Shown here one piece after another: positions 12,809 through 53,762 of a stretch of 64,000 nucleotides of DNA. The stretch's first letter is position 1; every line of letters starts with the position of its first letter. The translations under genes were made by a program, and so were the position numbers. The notes below the pieces were generated by a model. The model was given only the letters and a program-made list of their open reading frames with translations, was not told the DNA's origin and ran no database searches. The DNA comes from Eledone cirrhosa (Eukaryota), in assembly GCA_964016885.1 (NCBI GenBank), contig OZ024746.1:58218001-58282000 (forward strand). The letters are read 5' to 3'.

Positions 12809-12810
<2 letters not shown>

Positions 12811-16492: not shown

Positions 16493-16527
16493 GTTTAAAA
16501 TAGAGTGGAAAAGATGGGAAAGACCAC

Positions 16528-18858: not shown

Positions 18859-21800
18859 GTTTTCTTTATTAACCACAAGGGTTTACATAACGCAGACATT
18901 AAGGACAGTACAGGACAATACAGGACGGTACAGATGGGCATTTCTGCGTGTAAAAAACAAAAACAGAGGATGTAACAAAAAATAACAATGACAAATTCCC
19001 CAATAGGGGGGAGACTTCGGAGGGACATTTGTGGAGAAAGCCCAGTAGAAGGCCACAGTGACCCTGACCACCAAGGCAAGTGCCCTCTCCCAGTTTTCCA
19101 CCTTTAATTTACAGATACATACTCAGAGTAGGCCCATTCACTCGGGCCATTCTTGCTTCTCTCACCCATCTTTCAACAAAATGCTGGGAAGAGAGCACTT
19201 CCCTCTCTACTCTTATTTTCCTTTTCAAATCAAATTTGAAAAAGTCAATCAAGGCATCACGAAGAGGTAAGTGCTCGTCTTCAGCCCTTTCAAACGTGTC
19301 CACCATACTATCTCTTTTGCCATGGCCACCAGACAGATAAAAACTGCCTGCCCTTGCCGGCTAAATGAAGAGAGTGGAGCAATCCTCACGATGGACTCAT
19401 ATGATAGCCGGATCCGTCCTACAGGCGACAACAGGTGTTCGACATAAACCCACAAGGTAGCAATTTTCGGACACTGGACGAGTGCGTGCAGGACGGTTTC
19501 GTCGCCCTGCGCGCATCTCGGACAAGCCCGGCTGACGGCACCTCCATGCCTGTAGAGTTTATCTCGAACTGGCGAGGCTCCTCGGTAGCACTGCCAGGCG
19601 AGAGATTTCTGGAAGTTGTCCATAGGCCCCGGCCCGAAAGTTCTTCCGAAGAGATTGGCTAGTTGATTTTCGTCGACGCCTAGAGTTTCCACAAGTACGT
19701 CGTCGCTATTCCCCTCCACTAATCCTCTATAGAACGCCGAGATGGAGTTTCCACCGATCACATTGCCCGATTGGCCAAGGGCTGTGAGCGCCTGAAGACA
19801 TTCCAGTCTCCAAGCGCTCCCTCTCGGTCTTCGCTTGACCCACGACTGCAGCTTCGTGAAGGAAACGAGTTGGGGAAATACGTGTCTAACAAACGTCGAC
19901 CACATCTGATCACCGTCGAGGAAGAGGTGGAGATGTCGTACCTGAGCCCGTGTCTGCGCATCATCAGCCACGGCATGCCCAGCCCTTTACGTAGCGGGTG
20001 TTGACAACAGATGGACCGCCTGACCATCGGAGCGCGTCCCTTCCAGAAAAAGCGAAAGAGCAAACGCTCCAGCGCAATCAGGCGGGGCTTAGGACAAGGT
20101 ACGACGGTCAGGCGGTAGCAGATAACGGACGCGATGTACGCGTTAGCCACCTCCGCTCGACCTTTCAGGGATAGCTTCCTCTCGGCCTATTTCTGGGTGA
20201 GAGAAGCCACCCTGCTCGTCACCTCGTCCAAGTTTTTGTCCGTCTGGAGGCCCGGACCAAAACAGACCCCAAGCAATTTAACAGGCCCGTCCAGCGTCTG
20301 AAGATGCTGTTGGACGGCATGGACCTGCCTCTCCAGGTGCCGAGCTGCAGGCCCACTGACTTTTCCTGGTTGATCATTGCCCCTGTCACCGCTTCGTATT
20401 CTCTTAGTGTAGTGCCGATCGCCTCGATGTGTTTGGCGTTCGACACCACTACGGTGACATCGTGCGCATATGCTGACACGGATCTTCCGCATCCTAGTTC
20501 GCGCGGGACGCCCCTCAACGTCTCCAGTTTGTGCAGTAATGACTCGAGAGTCAATACGTACAAGATGGACGAGCGCAAGATGTTGAACGGTTCCGAAAGG
20601 TGACCGTTCACTCTCACTACAGAGCAGATGTCGCTGTGCATGCACAGCGATCCAGCCTCTGAAGACGGGCCCAAAGCCAGCCTCCCTCGGGACTGCCACT
20701 AGGTAACGATGGTCGACCCTATCGAAAGCTTTCGAGTGATCTAAATTGATCAAGGACCCACCCGTGCCAGGTTCCCTAGCTACCCTCTCTATACGATGTA
20801 TCGCATGAAGTGGAGGTTGTCGTGGATGGATCTCCCACCAGCCCACCAACGACAAACGCCAACCTCTTTGCTAGCACCTTGGCCAAAATCTTGAACTTAT
20901 GGGCCTGAAATTATCTATGATATCCCCGTTGTTCGGATCCTTTCTCAGCAGTGCCACCGCACCACGGCTCACAGAGCTGGGAATTCTCCCGTTGTGTTGC
21001 CAGTTGCTGTAAACGTCCGCCAAGAGGCCTCCGAACAAGTCTGGCATCTGTACGTAAAGTTCATAGGGCAGACCATCCAAAACAGGCGATTTACCCCTTG
21101 TGCAGCCAGTCATTGCCTCCCGTACTTCAGCGGCTGTTATCGGCTTTTCACAACACTCCGACTCAATGGCCGAGAGCGGCGGCAGTCCGTCGAGGTAGAC
21201 ACTAAAGTCCATCCCTCGATCATGCCCGCCGCTGCCCCCGAACAGTTGAGCGAAGTGTCGCTGAAAAGCTTCACACATTTGCCCGGGATCGAGTAGCATG
21301 CGCCCGTCGTGGTCCACCAAAGACCGGTTCGTGGCTTTGTTGCCACGTAGCGCCTCCGCCACTCGGGCCCATTGAACGGCTTTCGTCCCCTCGTGTCTGA
21401 GAGCACGCACCCTAGCTCTGACCACGCAGCCTTCGTGCTTTGCATTGAAGAATTGTTCAAGGTCCAATTTCGCCGGAAGTACGTCGGTCGCGATGCCTTT
21501 GCTAAGCGCCTCGTCTCATTTTCTAACTAGTTCTCCCCCTGCTCTATTTTTGTCTATAGCTAAAGCCTTACTAAACCTAATGGACTCTATTCTAATCGCT
21601 CTTTTCAGAACAAACCACCACTTGTTGTTGACGATGGCCTCCGACAACGCCCGCTTAACTAGTTCGCTAATCCGGTCTCTGTAGGCCTTACGCGCTGGTA
21701 AGCACGCGTTTAGCTTCCATTAGCCGGGTCCTCGTGTATGAAGACTATCTAAGTCAAGCACACAGATCACGAATTTGTGGTCGGGCAGCTGACTATCTTG

Positions 21801-24663
21801 AATTGTGGACAGCCTATGCTAGACCTATCTATTTCCCTACAAAATACTCTATCTAGATATGATCTGGATGACCCTATGCGATTTTCCAAGTCCACATTGG
21901 CAAATTCGGGAAATCCAATCGGTACATGTCAGACAGTTCAAAACGCCTGAGCAGACTGGTGAGGCTCTTGCACCCTCCTCCCTTATCCGCTAATCTCTAC
22001 ACAGTCCCAGCGTGCATCTTACATCCCGTTCCAGTCGCCCACTAACACTAAAGAGCGGGTCGTTCCAAGAAAGGTCTCCAGACGCCGGAAGAAATCAGGC
22101 CGCCCTGCTCCTCTCGGGGCATAGACGGCCACTAACCTGAAAGATTGCCCGTCTCCGCTGGTCACGTCCAGCACCACCAACTTACCTTCTGGGTCCAGGA
22201 AGATGGCCCGTATGGCAAGATCCAAACCTCTCCGAAAAAGCACAGCAACTCCTCCCCCCCCCGATCCCGGACGGCTGGGAGATGCGTACACATCGTAGCC
22301 GCCGAAGATCGGTGCGAAAGCCTGTGCTTCGGAGATTCTGGTCTCGCTGATGGCCACTACATCTATGTTTAGTGACCTGAGGTCGTTGAGCAGGTGGCCC
22401 TGCTTCCATGGCGACCCCAAGCCACGCGCATTTATGCTGCCTATTCTGAGTGAGGTCATGTTGAAAAGGAGTGGAAACGATGGGAAAGACCACTTACCTT
22501 ACTTCTCGTAGGGGAAGGACGGCTATTCCATCCTTTTCACTGCTTGTGGCCTCCTCAGGAAGGATATCCTTATAAATCCTCCTGGAGAGTGCTTGTCGGA
22601 AGTCTCTGATGTCTTTGGGGAATTTTTATTTTAGTGTAATGTACGTTTTCTGTGTGATGCGAGTGATTTGTATGTGTGGAGGTGGTGTGAATTTTGGGGT
22701 TGTTGTGTAGTCTTTTTCTGTGATGCTGGTGTTGTGTTGGATGTAGTGTAATAAATGCTTGTTGTCAAATTTAATGCTGTGTAGTGTGTATCGTTTTGGT
22801 TGTTTTGTTTTGTTTGCGTTTGTTGTAGGTTTGTTTCTGTTTCGCATTTTGGTGACATTTGTGTTGTAGGTGATGGTGGTGTTGGAGTTAATGATGGTGA
22901 TGGTGTTGGTGATGCTGGTGTGGATGGTGGCATATCTGTCCTAACTTTTTTGTTTCTTAGTTTATTTGTTTCCCTCTGTATTTTGTTTTTGGAGGGGGAA
23001 GGAAGAGAATTTTTTCTTTTTTGGCTTCTTTTTTTTTTTCCGGATATCGTTTCCCACTCCTCGACGTCACAATCTGTCTCCAGTTGTGATAGGCTGGGGA
23101 GTGGAAAATCCTCCACAGAGCGTTAGTTTTGGTTGTGGTGTGGTGGATGGTGTAGGCGCTGGTGCTAGTTGTGAAGCGTTGGGTGGTGGTGGTGTTCGTT
23201 TTGCTACTGTTGCTGGGGTTGTTGCTGTTATAGTTGCTTTTGTTGTTGCTGCTACAGTTGTTGCTGCCATCTCTGCTACTGGTGGTGTTGATGGTTGTGT
23301 CACTGGGGTGGGTAGGAGAGGTGGCCTCAACCTTTTAGCCTGAGGGCAGAAAGCCGTTAGGTGGGTTCCTTCACCACAAACGACACACCTAGGTCTTCTA
23401 CCCTCGACAATTACCGTGAGGTGGCTGCCGTCAGTGAGGTCTATTACCTCTGGGATCTCCTCAATGCTTTTTTGGTCCGCTTGGATCAGGAGCTCCATCC
23501 CAGATCCGGACCAGTTTTCCTGCTTTTCTTTTGCTATTGCTATTATTTTCGTGTTGGCTTCGATGCCGGCGAGGACAGCCGTTATTAGCCAGGGAATTTC
23601 GATGGGCGGTGGAACGTGGGTCACCCTGATCTTTACGAGTCTCTGGCCACAATAGCTTGGGACGAGTGTGAAGTCGTCACTTTTTAATGGGGCCATGGAG
23701 TGTTCTCTAGCCTCCTCTGGTGTTTCAAAGAACACACACACGGTTCCATACTTTTGCCCACGTCTGATGTGGGTGTTTCTTGCCCACACATGTCCCAAAG
23801 CTTTTTGGATTTGGGACTCGGATGCCCGTTCCACTCGGCGCGATTTTACATTTATTGTTCTATACGACACGGTGCATAGGCGCCGATGCTCCATTTAATT
23901 AGGTGGTGGGGGGGGGGGGGGTGAGGATGACCCTGTACCCATCTTTCTTTACCATTTGTTTGGCATTTTCTAAATCTTCCTGAGTTACCGTGAAAGCTTC
24001 GAAATGTTTTGCTACTCTGGCGAAACTGAGGGGGGTTTTTATAATGTTATTGTTGTTGTTGTTGTTGTTGCTATCGTTATTTGTGTTAATATTAATTTTA
24101 GTTTCAGTTGTGATGGTGGTGACGTCAGTCGTCTTTGGTGCGGAAGAGTCCATTTTGCTTGATTTCATTTCGACATCACGAGTTAATTAATTTTTTTCTT
24201 CTTTTGTTTCTGTTGTCGCGGTGGTGGTGGGGGTGGTGGTTGTCGCGGTGGTGGTGGTGGTGGAGGCTTTAACACCTGCAGTCATTGGTAATGGCGGGAA
24301 ATGAATGTCTGCCTGAGACAAATTTAAAATATTGCTACTGCTTATATTTTTTTTTGTGTTGGCAAACGTAGTAACATTTACAATGGTGGTGTCGGTGTGA
24401 GGTGTTATTTTCTGAGGAAGGCTTTCAGCTGCTTCGTGCAGAGGAAAATTAGCCATTTTTTTCAAATAAATTTTTGGATAATAATAAAAGTTAAAATTTT
24501 GGGCACAAGGCCCCAATCTTTTTGGGTGTCCTTTTCGGAAAACAATGTATGTGTGCTTATAAACAGTTAACAATAAAATTTTCCATAAATGGCAATTGTT
24601 AACAAACGGAAATAACAATCCTTTGCGGAGCTCACGATGATACGATTTACTACGTAGGTCGCC
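18859..24663 (-). mobile_element. Full-length degenerate Tx1 copy T2 (ORF1 type B)
   Basis: ORF1 ~22494-24456 and ORF2 19109-22459 broken by stops, frameshifts and small deletions; (AAT)8 at 18835-18858 and (AAT)18 at 24664-24717. Confidence 0.93.
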
Positions 24664-24718
<55 letters not shown>

Positions 24719-24959
24719 TTTTCTTTATTAACCACAAGGGTTCACATAAAGTAGACATTAAGGACAGTACAGGACAATACAGGACGGTACAAATGGGCAT
24801 TTCTGCGTGTAAAAAAACAGAGGTTGAAATAAAATAACAAAGAAAAATCCCCAATAGGGGGGATACTTCCAAGGGACATTTGTGGAGAAAGCCCATTAAA
24901 AGACCACAGTGGCCCTGACCACCAGGGCAAGTGCCCTCTCCCAGTTTTCCACCTTTAAT

Positions 24960-27900
24960 TTACAGACACATACTCAGAGAAGGCCCATTCATTCGGGCCA
25001 TACTTGCTTCTCTCACCCATCTTTCAACAAAATGCTGGGAAGAGAGCACTTCCCTCTCTACCCTAATTTTCCTTTTGAAATGAAATTTGAAAAAGTTAAT
25101 CAGGGCATCACCGAAGAGGTAAGCGCTCGTCTTCAGCCCTTTCAAACGTGTCCACCATACTATCTCTTTCGCCATGGCCACCAGACAGATAAAAACTGCC
25201 TGCCCTTCCAGGCTAAAGGAAGGGGGCGGGGCAATCCTCACGATGGACTCAGCTGATAGCTGGATCCGTCATACACGTGACAGCAGGTGTTCGACATAAA
25301 CCCACAAGTCAGCAATGCTCGGACACTGGACGAGTGCGTGCAGGACGGTTTCGTCGCCCTGCGCGCATCTCGGACATGCCCTGCTGACGGCACCTCCATG
25401 CCTGTAGAGTTTATCCCGAACTGGCAAAACTCCTCGGTAGCATTGCCAGGCCAGGGATTTCGGGAAGTTGTCCATAGGCCCCGGCCCGAAAGTCCTTCCG
25501 AAGAGATTGGCTAGTTGATTTTCGTCGACGCCTAGAGTTTCTCCAAGTACGTCGTCGCTCTTCCCCTCCACTAATCCCCTATAGAACGCCAAGGTGGGGT
25601 TTCCACCGATCACATTGCCCGATTGGTCGAGGGCTGTGAGCGCCTGAAGACATTCCAGTCTCCAAGCGCTCCCTCTCGGTCTTCGCTTGACCCAGGACTG
25701 CAGCTCCGTCAAGGAGACGAGCTGGGGAAAAAAGTGTCTTGCAAACGGCGACCACACCTGATCACCCTCGAGGAAGAGGTGGAGATGTCGTAGCCTGAGC
25801 GCGTGTCTGCGCATCATCAGCCACGGCATGCCCAGCCCTCCACGTAGCGGGTGTTGACAGCAGATGGACCGCCTGACCATCGGAGCGCGTCCCTTCCACA
25901 AGAAGCGAAAGAGCAAACGCTCCAGCGCAGTCAGGTGGGGCTTAGGACAAGGTACGACGGTCAGGCTGTAGTAGATGACGGATGCGATGTACGCATTCGC
26001 CACCTCCGCTCGACCTTTCAGGGATAGCTTCCTCTCGGCCCATTTCTGGGTGAGAGAAGCCACCCTGCTCGTCACCTCGTCCCAGTTTTTGTCCGTCTGG
26101 AGGTCTGGACCGAACCAGATCCCTAGCAATTTAACCGGTCCGTCCGTCCAGCCTCCAACGACGCTGTTGGACGGCATGGACCTGCCTCACCAGGTGCCGA
26201 GCTGCAGGCTCACTGACTTTTCCTGGTTGATCATTGCTCCTGTCACCGCTTCGTATTCTCTTAGTGTAGTGCCGATCGCCTCGATGTGTTTGGCGTTCGA
26301 CACCACTACGGTGACATCGTCGGCATATGCTGACACGGATCTTCCGCATCCTAGTTCGCGCGGGACCCCCCTCAACGTCTCCAGTTTGTGCAGTAATGGC
26401 TCGAGAGTCAATACGTACAATAGGGACGAGAGGGGACATCCTTGGCGGACCGAGCGCATGATGTTGAACGGTTCCGAAAGGTGACCGTTCACTCTCACTA
26501 CAGAGCAGATGTCGCTGTGCATGGCAGCGATCCAGCCTCTGAAGACAGGCCCAAAGACAGCCGCCCTCAGGACTGCCGTTAGGTAACGATGGTCGACCCT
26601 ATCGAATTCTTTCGACTGATCTAAATTGATCAAAGACCCACCCGTGCCAGGTTCCCTAGCTACCCTCTCTACGATGTATCGCATGAGGTGGAGGTTGTCG
26701 TGGATGGATCTGTCGGGAATGGCGCATGTCTGTGCCTCTCCCACCAGACCAGCAACGACAAGCGCCAACCTCTTTGCTAGCACCTTGGCCAAAATCTTGA
26801 ACTCTGTGTTTAGCAGAGTTATGGGCCTAAAATTATCTATGTTATCCCCCTTGTTCGGATCCTTTCTCAGCAGCGCCACCGCTCCTCGGCTCACAGAGCT
26901 GGGAATTCTCCCGTTCTGTTGCCAGTTGCAGTAGACGTCCGCCAAGAGGCCTCCGAACAAGTTTGGCATTTGTACGTAAAGTTCATAGGGCAGACCATCC
27001 AAACCAGGCGATTTACCCGTTGTGCAACTAGTCATTGCATCCCGTACTTCAGCGGTTGTTATCGGCTTTTCGCAACACTCCGCCTCAGTGGCCGAAAGCC
27101 GCGGCAGTCCGTCGAGGTAGACACTAAAGTCCATCCCCCGATCCGGCCCGCCACTGCCCCCGAACAGTCGAGCGAAGTGTCGCTGAAAAGCTTCACACAT
27201 TTGCCCGGGATCGAGTAGCATGCGCCCGTCGTGGTCCACCAAAGACCGGATCGTGGCTTTGTTGCCACGACGCGGCTCCGCTACTCGGGCCCATTGAACG
27301 GCTTTCGTCCCCTCGTGTCTGAGAGCACGCACCCTAGCTCTGACAACGCAGCCTTCGTGCTTTGCATTGAAGAATTGGTCAAGGGCCAATTTCGCCGCAA
27401 GTACGTCGGTCGCGATGCCTTTGCTAAGCGCCTCATCTAATTTTCTAACTAGTTCTCCCTCTGCTCTATTTTTCTCTATTGCTAAAGTCTTACTAAACCT
27501 AATGGACTCTATTCTAATTGATCTTTTCAGAGCAAACCACCACTTGTTGTTGACGATGGCCCCCGTCAACGCCCGCTTAACTAGGTCGCTAATCCGGTCT
27601 CTGTAGGCCTTGCGCGCTGGTAAGGATGCGTTTAGCTTCCAGTAGCCGGGTCCTCGTCTATGAAGCCTGTCTAAGTCAAGCACACAGATCACGAATTTGT
27701 GGTCCGTGTAGCTGACTATCTTGAATTGTGGACAGCCTATGCTAGACCTATCTATTTCCCTACAAAATACTCTATCTAGATATGATCTGGATGACCCTAT
27801 GCGATTTGTCCAAGTCCACATTGGTACATTCGGGAAATCCATTCGGTACCTGTCAGACAGTTCAAAACGTCTGATCAGGTTGGTGAGACTCTTGCACCTT

Positions 27901-28379
27901 CCTTCTCTATCCACTAATCCCACACAATCCCAGCGTGCATCTAAGATCCCGTTCCAGTCGCCCACTAACACTAAAGAGCGGGACGTTCCAAGAAAGGTCT
28001 CCAGACGCCGGAAGAAATCAGGCCGCCCTGCTCATGGCGGGGCATAGACGGCCACTAACCTGAAAGCTTGCCTGTCTCCGCTGGTCACGTCCAGCACCAC
28101 CAACTTACCTTCTGGGTCCAGGAAGATGGCCCGTATGGCAAGATCCAAACCTCTCCGAAAAAGCACAGCAACTCCTCCCCCCGATCCCGGACGGCTGGGA
28201 GATGCGTACACATCGTAGCCGCCGAAGATCGGTGCGAAAGCCTGTGCTTCGGAGATTCTGGTCTCGCTGATGGCCACTACATCTATGTGTAGTGACCTGA
28301 GGTCGTTGAGCAGGTGGCCCTGCTTCCATGACGACCCCAAGCCACGCGCATTTATGCTGCCTATTCTGAGTGAGGTCAT
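24960..28379 (-). pseudogene. T3 ORF2 (APE-RT): frameshift at ~28035, in-frame stops at 26187 and 25269
   Basis: ORF pieces 28032-28379, 26187-27971, 25269-26177, 24960-25241 are colinear with T1 ORF2. Confidence 0.92.
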
Positions 28380-28413
28380 GTTGAAAAGGAGTGGAAAAGA
28401 TGGGAAAGACCAC

Positions 28414-30374
28414 TTACCTTACTTCTCGTAGGGGAAGAACGGCTTTTCCATCCTTTTCACTGCTTGTGGCCTCCTCAGGAAGGATGTCCTTATAAATCCT
28501 CCTGGAGAGTGCTTGTCGGAAGTCTCCGATGTCTTTGGGGAATTTTTGTTTTAGTGTCATGTACTTTTTCTGTGTGATGCGAGTGATTTGTATGTGTGGA
28601 GGTGGTGTGAATTTTGGGGTTGTTGTGTAGTCTTTTTCTGTGATGCTGGTGTTGTGTTGGATGTAGTGTAATAATTGCTTGTTGTTCAAATTTAATGCTG
28701 TGTAGTGTGCATCGTTTTGGTTGTTTTGTTTTGTTTGCGTTTGTTGTGTGTTTGTTTCTGTTTCGCATTTTGGTGACTTTTGTGGTGTTGTAGTTAATGA
28801 TGGTGATCGTGTTGGTGTTTGGGTTGATGGGGTTGGTGATGCTGGTGTGGATGGTGGCATATCTGTCCTAACTTTTTTGTTTCTTAGTTTATTTGTTTCC
28901 CTCTGTATTTTGTTTTTGGAGGGGGAAGGAAGAGAATTTTTTCTTTTTTGGTTTCTTTTTTTTCTTCCGGATATCGTTTCCCACTCCTCGTCGTCACAAT
29001 CTGTCTCCAGTTGTGATAGGCCGGGGAGTGGAAAATCCTCCACAGCCGTTAGTTTTGGTTGTGGTGGATGGTGTAGGCGCTGGTGCTAGTTGTGAAGCGT
29101 TGGGTGGTGGTGGTGTTGGTTTTGCTACTGTTGCTGGGGTTGTTGCTGTTATAGTTGCTTTTGTTGTTGCTGCTACAGTTGTTGCTGCCATCTCTGCTAC
29201 TGGTGGTGTTGATGGTTGTGTCACTGGGGTGGGTAGGAGAGGTGGCCTCAACCTTTTAGCCTGAGGGCAGAAAGCCGTTAGGTGGGTTCCTTCACCACAA
29301 ACGACACACCTAGGTCTTCTGCCCTCGACAATTACCGTGAGGTGGCTGCCGTCAGTGAGGTCTATTACCTCTGGGATCTCCTCAATGCTTTTTTGGTCCG
29401 CTTGGATCAGGAGCTCCATCCCAGATCCGGACCAGTTTTACTGCTTTTCTTTTGCTATTGCTATTATTTTCGTGTTGGCTTCGATGCCGGCGAGGACAGC
29501 CGCTATTAGCCAGGGAATTCCGATGGCCGGTGGAACGTGTGTCACCCTGATCTTTACGAGTCTCTGGCCACAATAGCTTGGGACGAGTGTGAAGTCGTCA
29601 CTTTTTAATGGGGCCATGGAGTGTTCTCTAGCCTCCTCTGGTGTTTCAAAGAACACATCCACGGTTCCATACTTTTGCCCACGTCTGATGTGGGTTTTTC
29701 TTGCCCACACATGTCCCAAAACTTTTTGGATTTGGGACTCGGATGCCCGTTCCACTCGACGCGATTTTACATTTATTGTTCTATCCGACACGGTGCATAG
29801 TCGCCGATGCTCCATTTTATTAGGTGGGGGGGGGGGTGAGGATGACCCTGTACCCATCTTTCTTTACCATTTGTTTGGCATTTTCTAAATCTTCCTGAGT
29901 TACCGTGAAAGCTTCGAATTGTTTTGCTACTCTGGCAAAACTGAGGGGGGTTTTTATAATGTTATTGTTGTTGTTGTTGTTGTTGTTGCTATCGTTATTT
30001 GTGTTAATATTAATTTTAGTTTCAGTTGTGGTGGTGGTGACGTCAGTCGTCTTTGGTGCGGAAGAGTCCATTTTGCTTGATTTCATTTCGACATCACGAG
30101 TTAATTTATTTTTTTCTTCTTTTGTTTCTGTTGTCGCGGTGGTGGTGGGGGTGGTGGTTGTCGCGGTGGTGGTGGTGGTGGAGGCTTTAACACCTGCAGT
30201 CATTGGTAATGGCGGGAAATGAATGTCTGCCTGAGACAAATTTAAAATATTGCTACTGCTTATATTTTTTTTTGTGTTGGCAAACGTAGTAACATTTACA
30301 ATGGTGGTGTCGGTGTGAGGTGTTATTTTCTGAGGAAGGCTTTCAGCTGCTTCGTGCAGAGGAAAATTAGCCAT
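28414..30374 (-). pseudogene. T3 ORF1 (type B), disrupted
   Basis: Pieces 29820-30374, 29438-29857, 28994-29419 (CVVCGEGTHLTAFC knuckle), 28414-29043. Confidence 0.85.
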
Positions 30375-30581
30375 TTTTTTCAAATAAATTTTTGGATAAT
30401 AATAAAAGTTAAAATTTTGGGCACAAGGCCCCAATCTTTTTGGGTGTCCTTTTCGGAAAACAATGTATGTGTGCTTATAAACAGTTAACAATAAAATTTT
30501 CCATAAATGGCAATTTTTAACAAACGGAAATAACAAACCTTTGCGGAGCTCACGATGATACGATTTACTACGTAGGTCGCC

Positions 30582-35884: not shown

Positions 35885-38800
35885 GATTTCTTTAGTGGCC
35901 ACAAGGGCCGACATCAAGAAATACATTACAGACGTGCACAGGACGCTACAGGACGGTACAATGTGGGTTTTGCGCGTGTAAATATTTTTATTATTTATAT
36001 AAGAAAAGAAAAAAAAATAGACATAGAAACATATATATATAAACAATAAAAATGAAAATTGAAACAATGAAAAATTCCCCAATAGGGGGGAAACCTCCGA
36101 GGGTTACTCGTGGCGAAAACCTCACAAAAGACCACGGCCACTCTGACCACCAGTGCAAGCGCCCTCTCTCAATGTTTCCATTTCTCAAACTACAGACGTA
36201 TATTCAGAGTGGTCTCTTTCACTCGGACCATTCTCGCTACATTCACCCACCTTTCAACAAACTTGCTAGAAGGCAGAACTTTCCTCTCCACCCTGATTTT
36301 CCTCTTCAAGTGGAACTTGAAAAAGTTAATTAGGGATTTGCCGAAGAGGAAAGTGTCTGTCCTTAACACTTTTAACCTTGTCCAACACACAATATATTTC
36401 GTCATGGCCACCAGGCAGATGAAAACCGCCTGCGCTTCTTCCTCGAAGGAAGACGGCGAGACCATCTGCACAATGGACTCAGTCGACAACCGGATGAGTC
36501 CTACACGCGACAGTAACTGTTAGACATAACTCCACAAGTCAGCAATGCTCGGGCACTGAACGAGTGCGTGCACGGCGGTTTCGTCGCTATGCGAGCATCT
36601 CGCACAGGCTCGGCTGACGGCACTTCCGTGCCTGTAGAGCTTATCTCGAACCGGCAGCGCTCCCCGGTAGCACTGCCAGGCCAGAGATGTTTTATTTTTC
36701 TCCGGAAGAGAGCAAGCAGCTGATCCTCTTCGACGCCCAGGATCTCTCCGAGAATATCGTCGCTCTTCTCCTCCACTAGTCCTCTATAGAACGCCAAGGT
36801 GGATGTTCCACCGACACTGGTGCCCAGCTGGCAGAGGGCAGTGAGCGCCTGGAGACATTCCAGTTTCCAAGCGCTAAACCTCGGCCTTTTTCTGACCCAG
36901 GACTGCAGCTCCGTCAAGGAGACGAGCTGTGGGAAAACGTGCCTGGCGAACGGTGACCATCAAGGAAGCACCAGAGATGTCGCAGCCTCAGCGCATGTTT
37001 GCACATCATCAGCCATGGCATGCCCAGTCCTCCACGCAACGGGTGTTGACAGCAGATAGATCGTCTGATCATGGGAACGCATCCCTTTCACAAAAAGCGG
37101 AAAAGGAGGCACTCCATTTTGGTGAGAGTTGGGCTGGAGCAAGGGACGACGGTGAGGTGGTAGCAGATGACGGATGCGATGTACGGATTGCGCCACCTCC
37201 GCCCGGCTTTTCAGGGACAGCTTCCTCTCGGCCCATTTCTGGGTGAGGGAGACCACCCTGCTCGTCACCTCGTTCCAGTTTTTCTCCATCTGGAGGTCCG
37301 GTCCGAACCAGACCCCGAGCAATTTAACCGATCCGTCCGTCCAACACCCCACGACGCTGTCGGACGGCATGGACTTGCCTATCCAGGTGCCGAGCTGCAA
37401 GCCCACCGACTTTTCCTGGTTTATCTTACTTCTGTCACCGCTTCGTATTCCTTGAGAGCGGTGCCGAGCATCTGGACGTGTCTGGTGTTCGACACCACCA
37501 CGGTGACGTCATCAGCGTAAGCCGACTCGGATTTCCAGCATCCTAGTTCGCGCGGGTAGTCCCTCAACGTCACCAGTTTGTGCAGTAACGGCTCGAGAGC
37601 CAAACGTACAAGAGGGACGAGAGGGGACAACCCTGGCGGACTGAGCGCATGATGCTGAACCGCTGCGACAGGTGACAGTTCAGCCTCACAACTGAGCAGA
37701 TGTCGAAGTAAATTGCTGCGATCCAACCCCTGAAAACGGGCTCAAAACCGGCTGCCTCGAGGACCGCCGCCAGGTACCGATGGTCGACCCTATCGAATGC
37801 TTTGGATTGATCCAAGTTGATCCAGGCCCCACCCGTGCCAGGTTCTTTAACCACCCTCTCTATGATGTATCGCATGAGGTAGATGTTGTCGTGTATGGAA
37901 CTGTCCGGAATGGCACATGTCTGCGCCTCTCCCACCAGACCCTTTACGACAAGCGCCAACCTCGTTGCTAACACCTTGGTCAAAATCTTGAACTATGAGT
38001 TCAGAAGGGTTATGGGCCTGAAATTATCGATAACATCCCCCCTGTTCGGGTCTTTTCTTAGCAGCGCCACTGCTCCCCGGCTCACAAAACTGGGAATGCT
38101 CCCGTTCTACTACCAGTTGCAATAGACGTCTGCCAAGAGGTCACCGAACAAGTCTGGCATAAATGCATAAATCTCGTAGGGCAGACCATCCAGACCTGGC
38201 GACTTACTCCTTGTGAAGTTAGCCATCGCTTTCCGTATTTCACCGGCTGTTATTGGCTTTTCGCAACACTGTGCTGCGGTCGTGGAGAGCCGAGGCAGTC
38301 CGTCGAGGTATGCACTGAAGTCCATGCCCCGATCCGGGCCGCCGTCGCTACCGAACAGTTCAGCAAAGTGCTGCTGAAAAGCTTCACACATCCGCTCGGG
38401 TTCGAGCATCACGCACCCGTTTTGGTCAGACAAAGACCGAATTGTGGCTTTGTTGCCACGTTGCGCCTCTGCCACCCGGGCCCATCGACGGCTTTTGTCC
38501 CCTCGTGTTTCAGAGCACGCGCTCTAGCTCTGACAACGCAGCCGTCGTGTTTTGCGTTGAAGAATTGGTCGAGTGCCAATCTCGCCGCAAGCACGTCTGT
38601 TGCGATGCCTGTCCTAAACGCCTCTTCTAGATTTCTGACTAGCTCTCCCTCTACTCTATTTTCCTCTATCACTACTCCTTTGCTAAACCTAATCGACTCT
38701 ACTTTAATTGCCCTTTTCAGGGTGAACCACCACCTGTTTTTGACGACCGCTCCCGTCAACGCCCGCTTAACTAATACGCTAATCCGGTCTCTGTAGTCTT

Positions 38801-41800
38801 TGCGCGCCGGGAAAGACGCGTTCAGCTTAGTAACAAGGCCCTTGTCTATGAAGTCTGTCTATGTCGATCTCACAGATCACAAATTTGTGGTCTGTGTAGT
38901 CGACTATTTTAAATTGTGGACAACTTATACTAGCCTTATCTAATTCTCTGCAGAATACTCTATCGAGATACGATCTGGATGATCCGATGTGATTTGTCCA
39001 CATTGGCACATTCGGGTGATCCAGTCGATACCTGTCAGACAGTTCAAAACGTCTGAACATGTTGGTGAGGCTCTTGCACCCTCCTCCCCTATACACTAGC
39101 CCCACACAATCCCAGCGTGCATCCAAGATACCGTTCCAGTCGCCCACTAACACCAAAGAGCGGGACGTTCCAAGAAAGGTCTCTAGACGTCTGAAGAAAT
39201 CTGGCCGTCCTGCCTCTGATGGGGCGTAGACGGCTACTAGCCTGAAAGCATTGCCTTCGCTGCCGGTCACGTCCAGCACCACCGACTTACCTTCTGGGTC
39301 TGGGAATATGGCCCGTATCGAGAGATCCAAGCCTCTCCGAAAAAGGACGGCAACGCCTCCCCCCCCCCCCGATCCTGGACGGGTGGGAGACATCGTATAC
39401 AACGTAGCCGCCGAAGATCGGTGCGAAGGCTTGTGCTTCGGAGATTCTGGTTTTACTGATTGCCACCACATCTATGTTTAGTGACCTGAGGTCGTTGAGC
39501 AGGTGACCCTGCTTCCAAGATGACCCCAGACCACGTGCATTTATACTGCCTATTCTGAGTACGGCCCTATTGGATGAGAAACGGGGCAAGTGAGAAAAGG
39601 TCAATTACCTTGATCGTGTGGTGAAGGGACAGTAGAACCGTCCCTTTCGCTGGTCATGGGTGTTTCCAAGAGGATGTCAGTGTATAGCCTCTTGGCAACC
39701 GACCCCCTGAAGTCTCCAACTGCGTTGAGGAATTTTGGTTTAAAGATTTGTACTGTTCTATTGAGATTTCGATGATGCTTATGTATGTCGAGAGAGTTCT
39801 TGGTGCTGGTGAGGTGTAGTAGTTTTTTTCTCTGATGTATGTGTGCTGTTTTATATATTGTATGAGTTCTTTTTTTGCCATGTTTATGGTTGTGTACATT
39901 TTGGGGGGAGGGGTGATTTTGTTGCCGTTTTCTTCTTGTTGCTGTTTGGTGTGTGTGTCTTGTTGTGTTTGCGTTGTTGGTGATTTTGGTGATGCTGGTG
40001 GTGGTGTGGTTGTTGTTGTCAATGGTGCTTGTGGTGATGATGGTGGTGGTCTTGCTGCAAGTTTCCTTGCTGCCTTTACCCCTCTTTGTATGCCTTCGCT
40101 TTTGGAGGGTGAATCTAAGGTTTTTTTTCTTTTTTCTTTTTTTTTTGTGGCAGACCGTTTGCCACTTCACTCCTGCTTCAAACTCCATATCGGATTTGTG
40201 GCGTCTGGGAGGGGTATGTGCTCCACGGCTGTTGGTGGTGGTAGTGGAGCCCTCTTCGGCAATTTTGTTGCTGGTGTAGCTACTTCAAATGTAGCTATTG
40301 GTGTTGCCGCCACTGATGTGGCTGCTTTAGTTGTCCGTGGCCTTGGTACGGGTGCTACGGACGTTGCCCTCCTACTCACCGTGGAAGGGACTTCTTCGTT
40401 TGTTGCCTGCCATGCTCTTGGTAGCAGCGGACCAGGTATTGGAAGGAGAGAGGCCTTCTTCGCTGTCTTCTGCGGGCAAAAGGCCCTGAGGTGACCCTTC
40501 GATCCACAGAGATAACATTTTCGCCGTCTTCCTTCTACACTTATACGGAGTTGGAGTCCTTCCTCGATGTCTATGATATTGGGAATAGCGTCGATACATT
40601 CCTGGTCAGTTTGTATAAGCATTTGCATGCCTATACCTGACCAGTTCTCTATCCCTATTTTTTCTACTTGCAGCATGGTCGTCCTTTTCTCGATTCCAGC
40701 AAGGACAGACGCGGCCAGCCAAGGTATGGGCACGTCGGGTGGGTCCTGGGTCACTTTGACCCTCACAATTTTCTGCCCGCAGTAGGAGGGCACCAAGAAT
40801 ATCTTCTCACTCTTTAGGGTTTCCAAAGAGTGAAACTTTGCTTCCTGGCGGGTGGCGAAAAGTACGTCTACTGTGGCGTACTTTCTGCTTTGGGTGATGT
40901 GGGTTTTGCGTGCCCAAACGCACCCCAAGGCCTTTTGGATTTGAGCCTCCGTGGCTCTCTCCACCCGATGTGAGATTTTGCTTACGGTGCGGTATGTCAC
41001 CGTCCGTAGCTGCTGGTCCTTGAAAAAATCGAGTGGAGGTTTGAGGGAGACTCTATTGGCGCTTCTTGTCACCATGGCCCTTGCGACTGCCATCTCCTCC
41101 TCTGTGACTAACACTGTCTCGATATTTCGGGCGACACCTGCAAAATAAATGGTCCCTTTTTCAGCAGCACCAGTATTGCTGCCACTACTGGTCTTACTGG
41201 TGGTACTGAGATCGCTATTACAGGTATCGGTGTCATTGTTGTTGTTTTCGTTGGTACAGTTGTTGGTGTTCTTGTTGTTGTTTTCGTTGATACTGTTGCT
41301 GTTGTTACTGTTATTGTGTGTTGTTATTATTGTTGTTTTTGTTGATACTGTTCTTACTATTAATGTTGTTGTGGCTGTTGTTATAGTCATTGTTATTGTC
41401 GTTCTCAACCTTACCGCTTTATTTTTGTTATTGTCGTTCTCGACTTTACCGCTGTTATTTTTGTTGTTGCTGTTGTTATTGATGGTGTTGTTGTTGGTGT
41501 TGTTGGTGTTATTGTTGGTGTTGTTTGTGTTAGAAATATTTGTTAATTTTAAATCTGTAACAATCGTTTTTTCCTTTGTAATATTTTCGTTTATATTTAC
41601 CTCCGCTGGAACGCTGTCTTGTTGACATGCTGATAAAGTCTCCCTCTCTCTGTGTTGTCTGACAGCGCTCTCTCTCTGTTTCTTGTGATATCCATGTTGA
41701 AATTTTTTCAATAATAATATTCTTTTATTATTAGCCAAACACATTGAGAAAATATTATGACAGCACATGACCACAGAGGGCAGGAAAAATCGGTAAGATG

Positions 41801-41820
41801 TTGTTTTTTTGTGTTAAGGA
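35885..41820 (-). mobile_element. Older degenerate Tx1 copy T4 (ORF1 type C, related to type A)
   Basis: ORF2 fragments 36190-39604 colinear with T1; ORF1 fragments 39601-41695 with CYLCGSKGHLRAFC; 3' end CCTTGTGGCCACTAAAGAAATC(ATT)n; 5' boundary approximate. Confidence 0.9.
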
Positions 41821-46458: not shown

Positions 46459-46519
<61 letters not shown>

Positions 46520-46520
46520 A

Positions 46521-49500
46521 TTGGGATGGACACACGCGTATAACTTGCTGAGTAAGTTCTGTTTAAATTTCTATAGAAATTCTTGTCTGTTAACTTTAAT
46601 TTTTGTACTATTTTGTAGAGGGACTGCCAGGTCAAACTTTGATCTGGTCAGTCTCTCAAAATATTCTACGCCTTTAGGCGAAATAGTTAAACAAATGTTG
46701 AAAAGTTAATATTTTTTTAAATGGCTGAAGCTTCTTCACCAAAATTCAAAGGAGGAAAGGGGAAGATAAACTTACAGCTTCCCCCTGCCACTGTCACAGT
46801 AGCAGAGGTCAAGAAGAAAGGTCAGCCAGAGGAAGAATTTTCTCCAACTGTCAACCGACAACTTGACGTTTCCATGGCAACAACCCAAAGAACAAGCGGC
46901 ACCAGCAACAGCAACAACAACAACAATGCGACGGACGAAAACAACACCAATAACAATAACAACAACAACAAGACCAATAACCGTGACAACAACAACAATG
47001 ATAACAACAACACCACCAACGACAACAACAACACAAACAAAAAAAATGTCTCCTTCGCCGAGACGACAAGGAAAACCCTCGACTATCTGCCAGTAGATAT
47101 AACCAAAGCGAAGGAGCTACTGGCAGATGCCAAAAAATATATAGTGTACGGGGAAAATGGTTCATTCACAATCCATTCCCCGACGGAACTAAAAAGCCAG
47201 AGACTCCTAAACACTGTCATGTTTAGGACAATCTCGAATAAAAGTAAAAAACCAGCTCAACCATCACAGAGTGAGATAGAGCTGGTTTTAAAAGACGTCA
47301 TGAAGGACATCACCTTCATTCAGAAGGATAGACTCTACGGGAGTCTATCCATTCTCATGAAGGACAGGGACACAGCAGTGAAACTGTCCATCAAACCAAT
47401 CACATCCACCGCATACACCTTCTACCCTACGTACATGGGTAGAAGAACACAAAAAATAAAAATCCACACCATCCTGCCGATTATGGACATATGGTGGGTT
47501 TTGACAGGTTTCCTGGATCTGGAGGATGACATGCTGGTGTCCATGGGAAAGGCATCGGGTGACGCGTTCAGTGGAACGAGCCTCGAAATTGTAGTTCAAA
47601 TGAGGCCCGAAAGGATCGCCCCGATCCCTGAACGCGTCATACTGCATGATCTAACCTTCATCAACATTACCGTTGAGGGTAGGCGGCCCTCGTGTTACCT
47701 CTGTCCCCAACTTAATAAGAAAACCCCAATCCTGCCTACACCACCAACAACTGCACAACCAACACAATCACCACAACTACCACTACAAAAACAACCACCA
47801 CAGCTCAAACCAAAACAAAACAATGTCCAACCCATCCTCTCCACTCAAAAAACAAAAACAATTTCCAAAACACCCGCACCGCAAACACAACCCGAAAATA
47901 TTGCCCTCCCCATCCAACGCGGAAGATGACCCTAGTTCGTCGTCAGGCGAGGAGGAGCACTTCCACACAATCAAAAGAAAAAAAAGAAAACACGCCTCAG
48001 ACACACAAATGAAAACAACCCCTCCCCAAAACATAACACTGACACCAACACAAAAGAGCTCACAACAACAGCAAACAAAAAACACCACACAAAAACAAAA
48101 ACATGCAAACACATACATAAACACAAGAAACAAAAAACTGTTAAACATTGTGTACAACAACAATCTAGTAAAAACACAAGGGTCTAACTTCACCCAGGCA
48201 GGGGATTTCCCCCACCTCAAAATGATTAAGGCCCCACAGGACACCTCTAAATCTTTAAAAAACAATTTCAAGGAGGACGTGCGTCCCCCCTGCGTCGGGC
48301 CCATTAACCGCGTCCTCCTAAAAATCTACCCCACCCACTCCCCAAACACCCACACAACTCCAAACTCCCCAACCACACAACACACTGATGCCCCTACACT
48401 TCCACAAACCACCACCCCACCCAACAACCCATCCCCCACCCTAATGGAAATTGTGCAGCCCGATACCCGGGACGCAGAGAGGTAAGTGCCTTTTCTCTTC
48501 ACCACCAACATGGCTATGTTAAGAGTAGGCTGTTTAAATGCGCGTGGCCTGGGCTCAACTTGGAAGCAAGCAATGCTTCTAAATGACCTCAGGTCACAAC
48601 GTATAGATGTGATGGTTATTTGCGAGGCCCGGATCAGCAGCGTGCGACAGCTGGCCCCCACCTTTGATGACTTTGAGATGCACGCATCTCTCTGTCAGCC
48701 CGGAGGTGGGGGTGGAGTTGTCGTTCTGCTGCAAAAACATCTGGGTCTCGCAACACAGATGGTACATTTGGACCCGGAGGGTCGACTAGTGGTTCTGGAC
48801 CTTGGCAGTGGTAAAGGCGGAGCGTTTAGATTGGTAGCCGCCTACGGCCCTTTCGGGTCAATGCGGCCGGACTTCTTCCATCGTTGGAAACTTTTCTAGG
48901 GACGTCCCGCTCCTTGCTATTAGTGGGGGACTGGAATGGTATCCTAAATGCACGCTGGGACTACGTAGGGGCCTGTCCCGATAGAAAGGGGTGTAATAGC
49001 CTCAAAGGGTTAATCGGTCTATTTGACCTGGCCGATAGATATTGACTTGATTTTCCGACTGCGCCAACCTGGACTTGGGCAAATCGTAGCGGATCATCTA
49101 GGTCGTACCTAGATAGGTTATTAGTTAGAATTAAGGATAAGGACTTTTTAAGTTGTGGAAAAATGCGCATGGTTGGCTATTCAGACCACAAGTTAGTGAC
49201 CTGCATGATCAACCTTGACACAACTCAACCGGTTACTGGAAGCTCAACTTGTCCTTACCGGAAAGTAAGGCTTACAGGGTCCGGATTAGCACTTTAGTTA
49301 AGGAGCGGTTGACGGGCGCCATCGTCAACAGCAGGTGGTAAGGATCTCTCAAAAGAGAGATTAGAGTAGTCTCTATAGAATTTAGTAAGGAGTTAGCCTC
49401 AAATAGAAATAGGAAGGAAAGGGAGTTGGTAGATAGTGGAGAAGAGGCAATTAGAAGCGGCGACGTGGCCAGAGTGCTAGCGTCGAGAACGGCCCTGGGC

Positions 49501-51553
49501 CAGTTCTTCAACGCGAAACACGAAGGCTGCATCGTCCGAAGCAAAATACGTGCTCTGGGAAACGAGGGGACCAAAGCTGTTAGCTGCGCCCGCGTGACAG
49601 AAGCCAAAAGAGGGAGCAGATCCACTATCCGATCTTTGCGAGACCAGGTTGGACGGGTGATCCTTGAACCTAAGCAGATGTGCGAGGCTTTTCAAAAGCA
49701 CTTTGCCGGATTGTTCAGAAGGGGCCGGGGGCCGGTTGGGGATGTGGACTTCGGTCCATACCTCGACGGCCTGCCGCGTGTCTCGGACAGGGAGGCGAAG
49801 TCCTGCGAGGAGCCGATTTCAGCCGCTGAGATAGAGGACGTGCTGAGCCAATGCGGCAAACGCAAATCCCCAGGTCTCGATGGTCTTCCATACGAACTAT
49901 ATCTAGCTATGCCGGACTTGTTCCCCGATCTCCTCGAGGCGGTCTACTGCAACTGGCAACAGAACGGGAGAATTCCCTGTGCTGTGACCAAGGGCGTAGT
50001 CACGCTAGTGAGGAAGGACGATAACAAGGGGGACGATATAAATAATTTCAGGCCCATAGCTCTGCTAAATACAGAGTTACAGATTTTGGCCAAGGTGCTA
50101 GCAAAGAGGTTGGCGCTTGTCGTGGGCAACCTGGTGGCAGATGCGCAGACATGTGCTATCCCGTACAGGTCCATCCACGACAACCTCCACCTCACGCGAT
50201 ACATCATAGAGAGGGTTGGGAACGAACCCGGCTTTGGTGGGGCCCTGATCAACTTGGATCAATCTAAGGCATTCGATAGGGTTGACCATGGTTACCTGGA
50301 TGCGGTGTTAGCGGCGGCAGGCTTCGGACCCGTTTTCAGGGGCTGGATCAATGCCATGCACAGCAGCCGCATCTGCTCTAGGGTCAAGGTGAACGGCTAC
50401 CTCTCGGAGCCGTTCGAAATCGCGCGGTCCATCCGACAGGGGTGCCCTCTCTCCTCCCTTCTGTATGTAATGACTCTAGAGCCACTGCTGCGGAAGTTGG
50501 AGCTGTTGCAGGGCATCCTGTTGGAACCGGGATTGCGGAAAGCGGTGTCAGCCTACGCCGATGACGTAACAGTAATGGTGTCGACGGCCTCGGAAATCGG
50601 GGCGATCGGCACCTTACTGGAGGAGTACGAAAGGTTTACAGGGGCTAAGCTGAACCGGGACAAGTCGATCGGTCTGCAACTCGGCACGTGGAGGGGCAGA
50701 TCGATGCCCTCCGATGGCAAACTGGCCAACCTGTTCGGTAGGACATTCAGCCCGGGACCCATGGGTAACTTCCAGAGGTCCCTGGCCTGGCAATGCTACA
50801 GAAGGGCTCTGCCCGTTCGAGAAAGGCTCTACAGACACGGGCGCCCGGGTAGGGACCCCTCGAAAAAGATCTGTCCCAGATGCGTGTGCGACGAGGAAAC
50901 CGTTGCACACGCATTGGTACACTGCTCGAGCATTGCCGATCTGTGGGGCTATGTCGAACAACTGCTGTCAATGGTGGGACCGATCCGGTTGACCACCAAG
51001 TCTATTGTAACGATCAAGCCGCCCCCCCTCTTCAAAAACGAAGGAGAGGCGGTGTTTCTGTGCGTAATAGCCATGGCGAAAGAGGTTGTATGGTGGACGC
51101 GTCTGTAAGGACTGAGGTCAGACACCTTTCTCTCTGGCCAACAACTGGTCCGTTCTTCCGATATCATTTCGGAAGAAGGATCAGGATGGAGAGAGAGGTG
51201 CTGCACTCCAGCCGTTTTTATGAAAGATGGATGAAAGTGGCGAGAATGGCCCGTGTGAATGGGCCTTCACTCTACATCAGACTCTAGGTGAGGAAGATGA
51301 CAGACCAAGGGAGCACCCCTTCTCTGTGCTCCTGAGGAGAAGGGTTGCACGCTTTTTTTTCGGGGGTGTGTGCGACCCCCCAAGGCGCCTCCTCTCTATT
51401 GAGGACTTTGTTATAAATTTTATTTTTTGTTATATTTTATTTTATTTTTATATATTGTTATTGCCTCCTCCTTATTGAGGACGCCTTGTTTTGTAAACTC
51501 CCCCCATTGTACTTGTCCCACTTTTGATGCCCTGGTGGCAAATAAAAGAAACA
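46521..51553 (+). mobile_element. Divergent Tx1 copy T5 (ORF1 type D) flanked by (TATC)n
   Basis: ORF1 46721-48485 (frameshifted); ORF2 ~48510-51287 with APE/RT motifs, stops and an internal deletion at ~50715; AATAAA at 51541; (TATC)n at ~46460-46516 and from 51554. Confidence 0.92.
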
Positions 51554-51606
51554 TATCTATCTATCTATCTATCTATATATCTATCTATCTATATGTCTGT
51601 CTGTCG

Positions 51607-53325: not shown

Positions 53326-53326
<1 letters not shown>

Positions 53327-53759
53327 TCTTCGGCCAATCCCTCATCAACTTCTTCAAGTTTCACCTGGAAAGGAAGCTGAGGGTGGAGAGAGAAGCCCCC
53401 CCCCCAATACATTTGCTAAAAGGTGGATGAATGTGGCGAGAATAGCTCGTGTGAATGGGTCTACTCTGACCATGCGCCTATAGGCGAGGTAACTTGAAGA
53501 GAGGGGTGCTCTCCCTGGGTGCCCTAGAAGCGCAGGGTGGTTCAGGATTGGTGGGGTATCCGAGTCACCCCAGGGTCCTCCACCCCCTATAAGGGAATTT
53601 ATTTTATTATATTTATGCATAGTTTATTTTATATTTTTATATCTTCATTAAATTAGTCTTGCCATTGTGCACTTTTACTCGACCTTATTGTAAACCCCCA
53701 CAGTCCCTGTCTTTGTATTGTCTCCTACATGTTGACCCTTGTGGCTAATAAATGAAATC
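53326..53759 (+). mobile_element. 5'-truncated Tx1 stub T6
   Basis: Follows (ATT)10; LFGQSLINFFKFHLERKLRVERE...RVNGSTLTMRL matches ORF2 C-terminus; ends CCCTTGTGGCTAATAAATGAAATC-ATT. Confidence 0.88.
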
Positions 53760-53762
53760 ATT

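What the first reader, a model, noticed from the sequence alone, without database searches (positions are those of the whole stretch)
46460..51592. Related Tx1 family with a different target: (TATC)n
Seen: T5 is flanked on both sides by (TATC)n in the same orientation, not (ATT)n. Its ORF2 is clearly homologous to T1, yet its APE differs visibly (RVGCLNARG, AYGPFGSMRPDFF, WTWANRSGSSRSYLDR vs WTWTNRIGSSRSYLDR). Known: in APE retrotransposons the hairpin loop just before the S.(I/L)D motif influences target choice. Inference: a tri- to tetranucleotide specificity switch between relatives, a natural pair for mapping specificity residues. Based on one copy only.
Basis: partly seen in the sequence, partly recalled or inferred. 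Interest (0 to 1): 0.7.

Follow-up and report, generated by a model that had tools for sequence, protein, structure and literature searches.

The report
Octopod retrotransposon family targeting TATC repeats
A broken copy of an octopod jumping gene sits inside a (TATC)n microsatellite, as do other copies of its family in sequencing runs from two organisms, while its distant sister family sits in (ATT)n; repeat-targeting retrotransposons of this kind are known, and the likely cause of the different target is a predicted, untested change in the DNA-cutting domain.

Summary
T5 (46520-51553, +) is a decayed, internally deleted APE-type LINE with (TATC)n on both sides in the same orientation. Its relatives in the window sit in (ATT)n. 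In public runs from two organisms, 10 displayed contig junctions (8 truncation points) join in-phase (TATC)n to internal T5 sequence, and full-length 5' ends show three more TATC phases. Non-TATC flanks could not be counted.

The interpretation needs correcting. The families are not a close pair: endonuclease 55-60% identical, 64 of 236 fixed differences, and T5 groups with an Argonauta protein. The hairpin keeps its length and differs at 2 of 9 residues, and both T5 residues also occur on the ATT side of the tree. A better candidate is residue 115: Phe in T5 and Argonauta, T/P/R/S in ATT copies, equivalent to R1Bm Y98 and L1 N118. An RNA tail pairing with the target is a rival. The direction of the switch is unknown. 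Unit-length changes are already published for Tx1 (Kibi, Koshi, crocodilian families); I found no report of TATC or ATT targets. New variant of a known kind.

The parts
46459..46519 (+). 5' flank, perfect (TATC)n, about 15 units (target repeat)
46520..46720 (+). 5' UTR of T5; no clear similarity to the T1 or T3 5' UTRs; three other junction phases on TATC are seen in other full-length copies
   Evidence: (no blastn hit), 22 table 4, 35, 51
46721..48485 (+). ORF1, frameshifted (46721-47929 and 47655-48485); 28% identical to T1 ORF1 over 166 aa; zinc knuckle incomplete
48510..49230 (+). APE-type endonuclease domain of ORF2, broken by frameshifts and a stop; 55-60% identical to ATT-family ENs
48852..48854 (+). 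Phe115 (catalytic Tyr112 + 3; equivalent to L1 N118 and R1Bm Y98); candidate specificity residue, shared with Argonauta P0005
49073..49105 (+). beta-hairpin between anchors T189 and S199; 9 residues as in ATT copies; differs at 191 (Ala) and 194 (Ser, equivalent to L1 P197)
49231..50719 (+). linker and reverse transcriptase (Pfam RVT_1, E 4.6e-25); 67.5% identical to T1 over 511 aa
50719..50720 (+). junction of a 646-nt internal deletion relative to T1 ORF2
50720..51290 (+). ORF2 C-terminus with zf-RVT CCHC finger, broken by a stop and a frameshift
51291..51553 (+). 3' UTR ending CCCTGGTGGC-AATAAA-AGAAAC-A, no poly(A); the end motif resembles the ATT families' ends
51554..51592 (+). 3' flank (TATC)n, 5 perfect units then degenerate, same orientation as the 5' flank
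12809..18834 (-). T1, intact ATT-flanked sister-family copy used for comparison (ORF2 1139 aa)
18859..30581 (-). T2 and T3, ATT-family copies in tandem, separated by (ATT)n
35885..41815 (-). T4, diverged ATT-flanked subfamily (EN 82-86% identical to T0-T3)
53326..53760 (+). T6, 5'-truncated copy of a third subfamily with (ATT)10 5' flank; 67% DNA identity to T1 and 68% to T5 over about 158 coding nt

Best explanation
T5 is a dead copy of a multicopy APE-endonuclease LINE family whose copies sit in (TATC)n microsatellites, and it likely split long ago from the (ATT)n-flanked sister family; its endonuclease would nick the (GATA)n strand to prime reverse transcription, with the changed preference likely set by the DNA-binding cleft (Phe115 the best candidate) rather than by the hairpin alone. 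Shown: both flanks; further TATC-flanked truncated and full-length copies; divergence figures; the residue differences. Inferred from L1/R1 biochemistry: target-primed reverse transcription, endonuclease-set targeting, and microhomology-joined 5' truncations. Inferred and untested: which residues read the target. The two cut strands, (AAT)n and (GATA)n, share an ATA core flanked by purines, so only a small change of preference may be needed; the nick phase cannot be read from the junctions.
For: Flanks. Other copies: 9 of the 12 displayed rows of table 5c, plus 1 row of table 5, join in-phase TATC, in T5's orientation, to internal positions 49082, 49402, 49541, 50071, 50939, 51029/30, 51153 and 51161/2 (7 rows in run X2, organism B; 3 in X4, organism D). 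At 7 of these 8 points the window's ATT copies are under 85% identical over the next 30 nt, so they would not have been laid there. Several junctions show TC/ATC microhomology. Full-length 5' ends in X4 show three more TATC phases (table 4). The family carries other alleles at several of T5's stops and frameshifts, so those lesions are private to this copy (tables 3, 4). Old split: ORF2 DNA 69% identical and fourfold sites 149 of 294 identical; T5 groups with Argonauta hians GAB1601854.1 at 95/93 and 94/94. Residue 115 is Phe in T5 and Argonauta but T/P/R/T/S in five ATT copies, and Phe in 2 of 53 close fragments covering it, against Thr in 29. The equivalent R1Bm Y98 changes +2 base preference when mutated (PMC1919474) and L1 N118 contacts the major groove (PMC8565326). 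The T1 EN model has pLDDT 96 and its top 12 Foldseek hits are L1 EN or ORF2p structures.
Against: There is no denominator. 241 rows of table 5c, 561 joints and 4,519 loose ends were not displayed, and non-TATC flanks would appear among the loose ends, so strict specificity is not shown. The 50071 junction could come from an ATT-family copy (93% local identity). Junctions recurring in both organisms (51029/30, 51161/2) may be one ancestral event each. The target of the Argonauta element is unknown, so F115 is tied to TATC by one family only. Whether F115 is fixed in the T5 family is not shown (1,112 variant rows hidden). T5 and Argonauta share 47 residues to the exclusion of the ATT copies, any of which could matter. 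Support for T5 plus Argonauta fell just under the tool's threshold with more taxa (94/94). No nicking assay exists.
Confidence: 0.7

Rival explanations
1. One reading: the beta-hairpin (T191A, I194S) is the switch, so a loop swap would move targeting between (ATT)n and (TATC)n.
For: Position 194 aligns with L1 P197, which touches a base in the minor groove (PMC8565326 passages; alignment and anchor counting). Ile194 is present in all 5 ATT copies. The hairpin contributes to recognition in TRAS1 and R1Bm (PMC2868851, PMC1919474 passages).
Against: The loop has the same length with 2 of 9 residues different. A191 and S194 occur together in P0171 and P0177, which group with the ATT families at 98/98 (their targets are unknown). 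The Argonauta member of the T5 lineage has a different loop. L1 loop grafts gave altered or lost specificity, not the donor's (PMC1950540, PMC8565326 passages).
Confidence: 0.15
2. Targeting is partly RNA-programmed. The endonuclease would nick AT-rich purine repeats loosely, and the transcript would run a few units into the downstream microsatellite, so its 3' end anneals to the nicked strand and only matching repeats prime synthesis. One chance insertion into (TATC)n could then found a new target family.
For: None of the 7 element 3' ends printed has a poly(A) tail, and 6 of 7 have AATAAA within about 7 nt of the repeat junction, so normal 3' processing would fall inside the repeat (processing distance recalled). 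All ends share C-A-T at the junction. RNA-target annealing aids priming in SART1Bm and R1Bm (PMC7265360 passages). [quoted passage not shown]
Against: No RNA data were examined. An EN swap between TRAS1 and SART1 transferred the insertion site (as cited in PMC1919474). The EN surface has diverged widely between the families. Missing poly(A) could have other causes.
Confidence: 0.2
3. The T5 family is not specific. It inserts broadly in AT-rich repeats, and the TATC-flanked copies are a visible minority, or the 3' TATC is only the element's own tail.
For: Non-TATC flanks could not be counted. With very many copies and about 0.2% TATC sequence, a few adjacent cases would arise by chance. My reference carried TATC ends, so TATC junctions were preferentially reported as joints.
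Against: 9 of 12 displayed rows are TATC junctions, all in T5's orientation and in phase. Full-length 5' ends occur on TATC in several phases. A tail cannot explain TATC at the 5' ends of truncated copies unless all are tandem insertions into TATC tails, which is itself targeting.
Confidence: 0.08

Closest known systems
Kibi (TC)n, Koshi (TTC)n and crocodilian Tx1 families on (TTCC)n/(TTTC)n (Kojima and Fujiwara 2004, seen only as cited; Kojima 2015, PMC4494074)
   Same: Related Tx1-clade APE elements that target microsatellites, with unit length 2, 3 and 4 among relatives: the same kind of switch as proposed here.
   Different: Those targets are pyrimidine-only strands in vertebrates. Here the targets are (ATT)n and (TATC)n in octopods. 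Relationship to those lineages was not tested by tree.
Waldo (ACAY)n and Mino (AC)n, R1-clade APE elements (PMC3812793 passage; clade from the cited paper's title)
   Same: APE elements on microsatellites of different unit length.
   Different: Different clade, insect hosts, different repeats.
Dong (TAA)n elements (PMC3812793); Dong-R4 and L1-Tx1 families are listed as recently active in Octopus vulgaris (PMC13282606, Table 1)
   Same: Same (TAA/ATT)n target as the T1 family; a Dong/R4-like element shares the array in this window.
   Different: Dong/R4 use a C-terminal restriction-like endonuclease (recalled), not an APE domain. The Octopus paper's main text has no occurrence of 'target'.
R1Bm EN Y98 and human L1 EN N118/P197/H198 (PMC1919474, PMC8565326)
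   Same: Same fold; residues 115 and 194 here occupy those base-contact positions.
   Different: About 21% identity to L1 EN; no assay or DNA-bound structure for the octopod enzymes.

Membership tests
APE-type non-LTR retrotransposon (L1 group) | N-terminal APE endonuclease in ORF2, closest in fold to L1 EN | tested here: met
   Pfam Exo_endo_phos on T1 ORF2; T1 EN model's top 12 hits are L1 EN/ORF2p, best E 6.8e-19, TM about 0.81; T5 EN is 55-60% identical to these. T5's own EN was not folded because it is broken.
APE-type non-LTR retrotransposon (L1 group) | RT domain plus C-terminal CCHC finger (zf-RVT) | tested here: met
   RVT_1 E 4.6e-25 (above cut-off) and zf-RVT E 1.1e-05 (26.4 bits, just under the 27.5 cut-off) on T5
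APE-type non-LTR retrotransposon (L1 group) | 5'-truncated copies sharing the 3' end | tested here: met
   8 truncation points and depth rising toward the 3' part (depth also includes relatives)
Tx1 clade | RT tree places it with named Tx1 elements (Tx1L, Keno, Kibi, Koshi) | not testable with these tools
   No named Tx1 reference sequences were available; trees used only session proteins
Tx1 clade | Two ORFs, ORF1 with CCHC zinc knuckle (feature recalled) | tested here: inconclusive
   Complete CX2CX4HX4C in T1 and T4 ORF1; only CX2C is left in the damaged T5 ORF1
Microsatellite-specific Tx1 families (Kibi/Koshi type) | Target seen in more than 20% of flanks of the family (threshold used in PMC4494074 for target calls) | tested here: inconclusive
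   10 displayed TATC junctions plus 3 phase variants, but no denominator
Microsatellite-specific Tx1 families (Kibi/Koshi type) | Target is (TC)n, (TTC)n, (TTCC)n or (TTTC)n | tested here: not met
   Flanks are (TATC)n for T5 and (ATT)n for its sisters: it works like Kibi/Koshi but is not one of them
Dong/R4 (restriction-like endonuclease) elements | No APE domain; C-terminal PD-(D/E)xK nuclease (recalled) | tested here: not met
   T5 has an APE-type N-terminus

The most novel reading that the evidence does not exclude
Octopod Tx1-like LINEs changed microsatellite target with an almost unchanged hairpin. One cleft residue (T/P/R/S to Phe at 115, the R1Bm Y98 position), together with a read-through RNA tail that carries the target repeat and pairs with the nick, would be enough to move the element between (AAT)n and (GATA)n. 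That would make target choice partly RNA-programmable in an APE retrotransposon with intact copies available.
Probability: 0.2. Interest if true: 0.68.

Novelty: new variant of a known kind. Interest (0 to 1): 0.42.

Why it matters
How APE endonucleases read their targets is still poorly resolved: L1 EN makes few base contacts, and hairpin grafts did not transfer specificity. Two sister families in one genome, on two simple and assayable repeats that share an ATA core, give a usable comparison. They point to a residue opposite the hairpin that has experimental precedent in R1Bm. The finding also adds two target motifs, (TATC)n and (ATT)n, that my searches did not find reported for Tx1-like elements, and shows octopod microsatellites acting as landing sites shared by unrelated retrotransposons. 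The impact is limited because the phenomenon is known and the pair is too diverged for simple residue mapping.

Tried and rejected
No whole genome was held, so no genome-wide flank count could be made. The metagenome scan gave only 4 distant loci at 26-36% identity, not used. Viral and prokaryote contigs gave nothing. A protein search with the T5 hairpin fragment found no hit among 5 candidates; the T1 EN search gave 2 hits. None of the 152 proteins held scored higher with the T5 EN than with the T1 EN by best local hit; P0005 was assigned to the T5 side by identity, shared residues and trees. Three look-ups of earlier findings returned nothing. Supplements of PMC4494074, which may list more Tx1 targets, could not be read.

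Rejected: chance adjacency or an assembly artefact for the window copy (and the same arrangement in other runs). Rejected: a recent switch between near-identical relatives. The nick position cannot be deduced from the junctions because every phase fits. A formal test of one clade was not run; the function name I tried did not exist. The trees left out T0 and T6 (too incomplete for the region).
Full report
Setting. The window holds a cluster of non-LTR retrotransposons in microsatellite-rich DNA. The nearest named protein hits are from Octopus sinensis (a gene model that includes an EN fragment) and Argonauta hians, so the host is probably an octopod. No whole genome was held. Five related copies lie on the minus strand: T0 (about 1930-5660), T1 (12809-18834, intact, ORF2 1139 aa), T2, T3 and T4. 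A truncated plus-strand copy, T6, lies at 53326-53760. All 7 of 7 perfect (AAT/ATT)n arrays of at least 16 nt abut an end of one of these or of a separate Dong/R4-like element.

Observation. T5 is bounded by (TCTA) x15.2 at 46459-46519 and by five TATC units at 51554-51573 that then decay, both reading TATC on the plus strand. The only other such array covers 48 of 25,352 non-element bases. The quoted EN motifs are correct. T5 is dead: ORF1 and ORF2 are frameshifted, ORF2 has stops, and 646 nt are missing after 50719.

Other copies. Eleven runs were listed, 7 holding part of the element. Four were laid on 46502-51572 at 85% likeness. Of the 12 rows displayed in table 5c, 9 join in-phase TATC repeat to an internal T5 position, 1 is only a longer repeat and 2 are internal rearrangements; one more TATC junction is in table 5. 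The 10 junction rows fall at 8 points: 49082, 49402, 49541, 50071, 50939, 51029/30, 51153 and 51161/2. Seven come from run X2 (organism B) and three from X4 (organism D). All have T5's orientation, and several show short microhomology typical of 5' truncation. At 7 of 8 points the window's ATT copies are under 85% identical over the next 30 nt; 50071 is ambiguous at 93%. Full-length 5' ends in X4 show three further phases on TATC (table 4). Several T5 lesions are absent from other copies (tables 3, 4). The limits are real: 241 rows of 5c, 561 joints, 4,519 loose ends and 1,112 variants were hidden, non-TATC flanks would be among the hidden loose ends, and the tool silently drops human-like reads. 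The data show repeated independent insertion into (TATC)n, not what share of the family does so.

How far apart the families are. Over EN residues 1-240 the five ATT copies are 82-95% identical to each other and 55-60% to T5. At 64 of 236 comparable sites the ATT copies are invariant and T5 differs. ORF2 DNA identity to T1 is 69%, with 149 of 294 fourfold sites identical, against 299 of 447 for T1 versus T4. ORF1 is 28% identical over 166 aa. Trees of ORF2 residues 106-600 group T5 with Argonauta P0005 at 95/93 (13 rows) and 94/94 (12 rows), apart from the ATT copies. If inheritance was vertical, the split predates the Argonauta/Octopus divergence. ATT-flanked T6 is about as far from T1 (67%) as T5 is (66%) over a short coding stretch. 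No outgroup target is known, so the direction of change is open.

Where specificity may lie. The T1 EN folds confidently (pLDDT 96) and matches L1 EN best. The hairpin anchors T189 and S199 correspond to L1 T192 and S202 (PMC1950540 passages). The loop is 9 residues in both families and differs at 191 and 194. But A191 with S194 also occurs in P0171 and P0177, which group with the ATT families at 98/98 (targets unknown), and the Argonauta loop differs from T5's. L1 loop grafts changed or lost specificity without transferring the donor's. Across the cleft, residue 115 (catalytic Tyr + 3) is T, P, R, T and S in the five ATT copies but Phe in T5 and Argonauta, and Phe in only 2 of 53 close fragments. 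It aligns with L1 N118, which contacts the major groove. R1Bm Y98, at the same position, alters +2 base preference when mutated. This makes 115 my lead candidate, but it is one of 47 residues shared by T5 and Argonauta against the ATT copies, and it is untested.

Mechanism. By analogy with L1 and R1 elements, the EN would nick the (GATA)n strand, the freed 3' end would prime reverse transcription at the element's 3' end, and the 5' end would join the TATC strand, often early and at microhomologies. The cut strands (AAT)n and (GATA)n share an ATA core with flanking purines, so a small change could separate them; the nick phase is not recoverable from the junctions. A rival or added factor is the RNA. 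None of 7 printed 3' ends has poly(A), and 6 of 7 have AATAAA within about 7 nt of the repeat, so transcripts may carry target repeats that anneal to the nick, as proposed for SART1Bm and R1Bm. No RNA was examined.

Prior knowledge. Tx1 relatives on (TC)n, (TTC)n, (TTCC)n and (TTTC)n are published (PMC4494074), as are Waldo, Mino and Dong (PMC3812793). Unit-length switching among relatives is therefore known. Five searches found no report of (TATC)n- or (ATT)n-targeting Tx1 elements or of targets for octopus Tx1. PMC13282606 lists 13 recently active L1-Tx1 families in O. vulgaris without mentioning targets. Repbase, Dfam, subscription journals and the supplements of PMC4494074 were not seen and may already hold this. 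What I saw of each paper: passages only for PMC1950540, PMC1919474, PMC8565326, PMC2868851, PMC7265360, PMC3812793, PMC13282606 and PMC3747384; passages plus section 15 for PMC4494074; Kojima and Fujiwara 2004 and Takahashi and Fujiwara 2002 only as cited. The Tx1 label rests on architecture and behaviour and was not tested against named references.

Verdict. The feature is real and family-level, a new variant of a known kind. The simple loop-swap story is unlikely; a sharper test centres on residue 115 and the RNA tail. Interest 0.42.

Noticed in passing
window 30654-35851 (+); truncated copy 5686-6308 (+): A full-length LINE of another kind (RT, zinc finger, C-terminal PD...D-like nuclease motif, no APE; Dong/R4-like by recall) sits in the same (AAT)n arrays as the T1 family but on the opposite strand. 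Two unrelated nucleases share one target and build a mixed tandem array at 12809-41815.
   Followed up: partly
window 48480-48509 (+) and the matching ORF1/ORF2 boundaries of T1, T3, T4: The ORF1 stop lies in a 5' splice-site-like motif (GGTAAGTG; GGTAATTG in T4) followed by a pyrimidine tract and the ORF2 start, conserved across families only 69% identical. Function unexplained: possibly U1 binding, splicing or translational coupling.
   Followed up: no
window 46550-46620 (+); 5' UTRs of T1, T3 and the Dong-like element: A donor-like GT motif (GTAAGT in T5) lies 30-60 nt from the 5' end, followed by an AT-rich stretch; in T5 and T1 it ends in TTTTGTAG, like a small intron, although these UTRs show no clear similarity.
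   Followed up: no
window 21-60334, 15 hits: A roughly 180-nt SINE-like repeat has 15 copies in the window; two lie directly behind the 3' ATT junctions of T0 and T6. Identification as an octopus SINE is recalled, not tested.
   Followed up: partly
window about 1930-5660 (-), junction near 1990: T0 jumps from mid-RT straight to the last 60 nt or so of the 3' UTR, and has a second internal deletion near 2243.
   Followed up: no
T0, T2, T3 versus T1 (window 24694-30635, 18835-24717, 12755-18834): T1 shares ORF2 and the 3' UTR with T2 and T3 at 92-95% but has a different 5' UTR and only 53% ORF1 identity, suggesting 5' UTR/ORF1 replacement within the ATT family.
   Followed up: no
protein cluster of P0043 (KAK6191799-KAK6191823): Eleven clustered ORF2 proteins with closely spaced locus tags in Patella caerulea suggest another tandem array of a target-specific relative in a limpet.
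   Followed up: no
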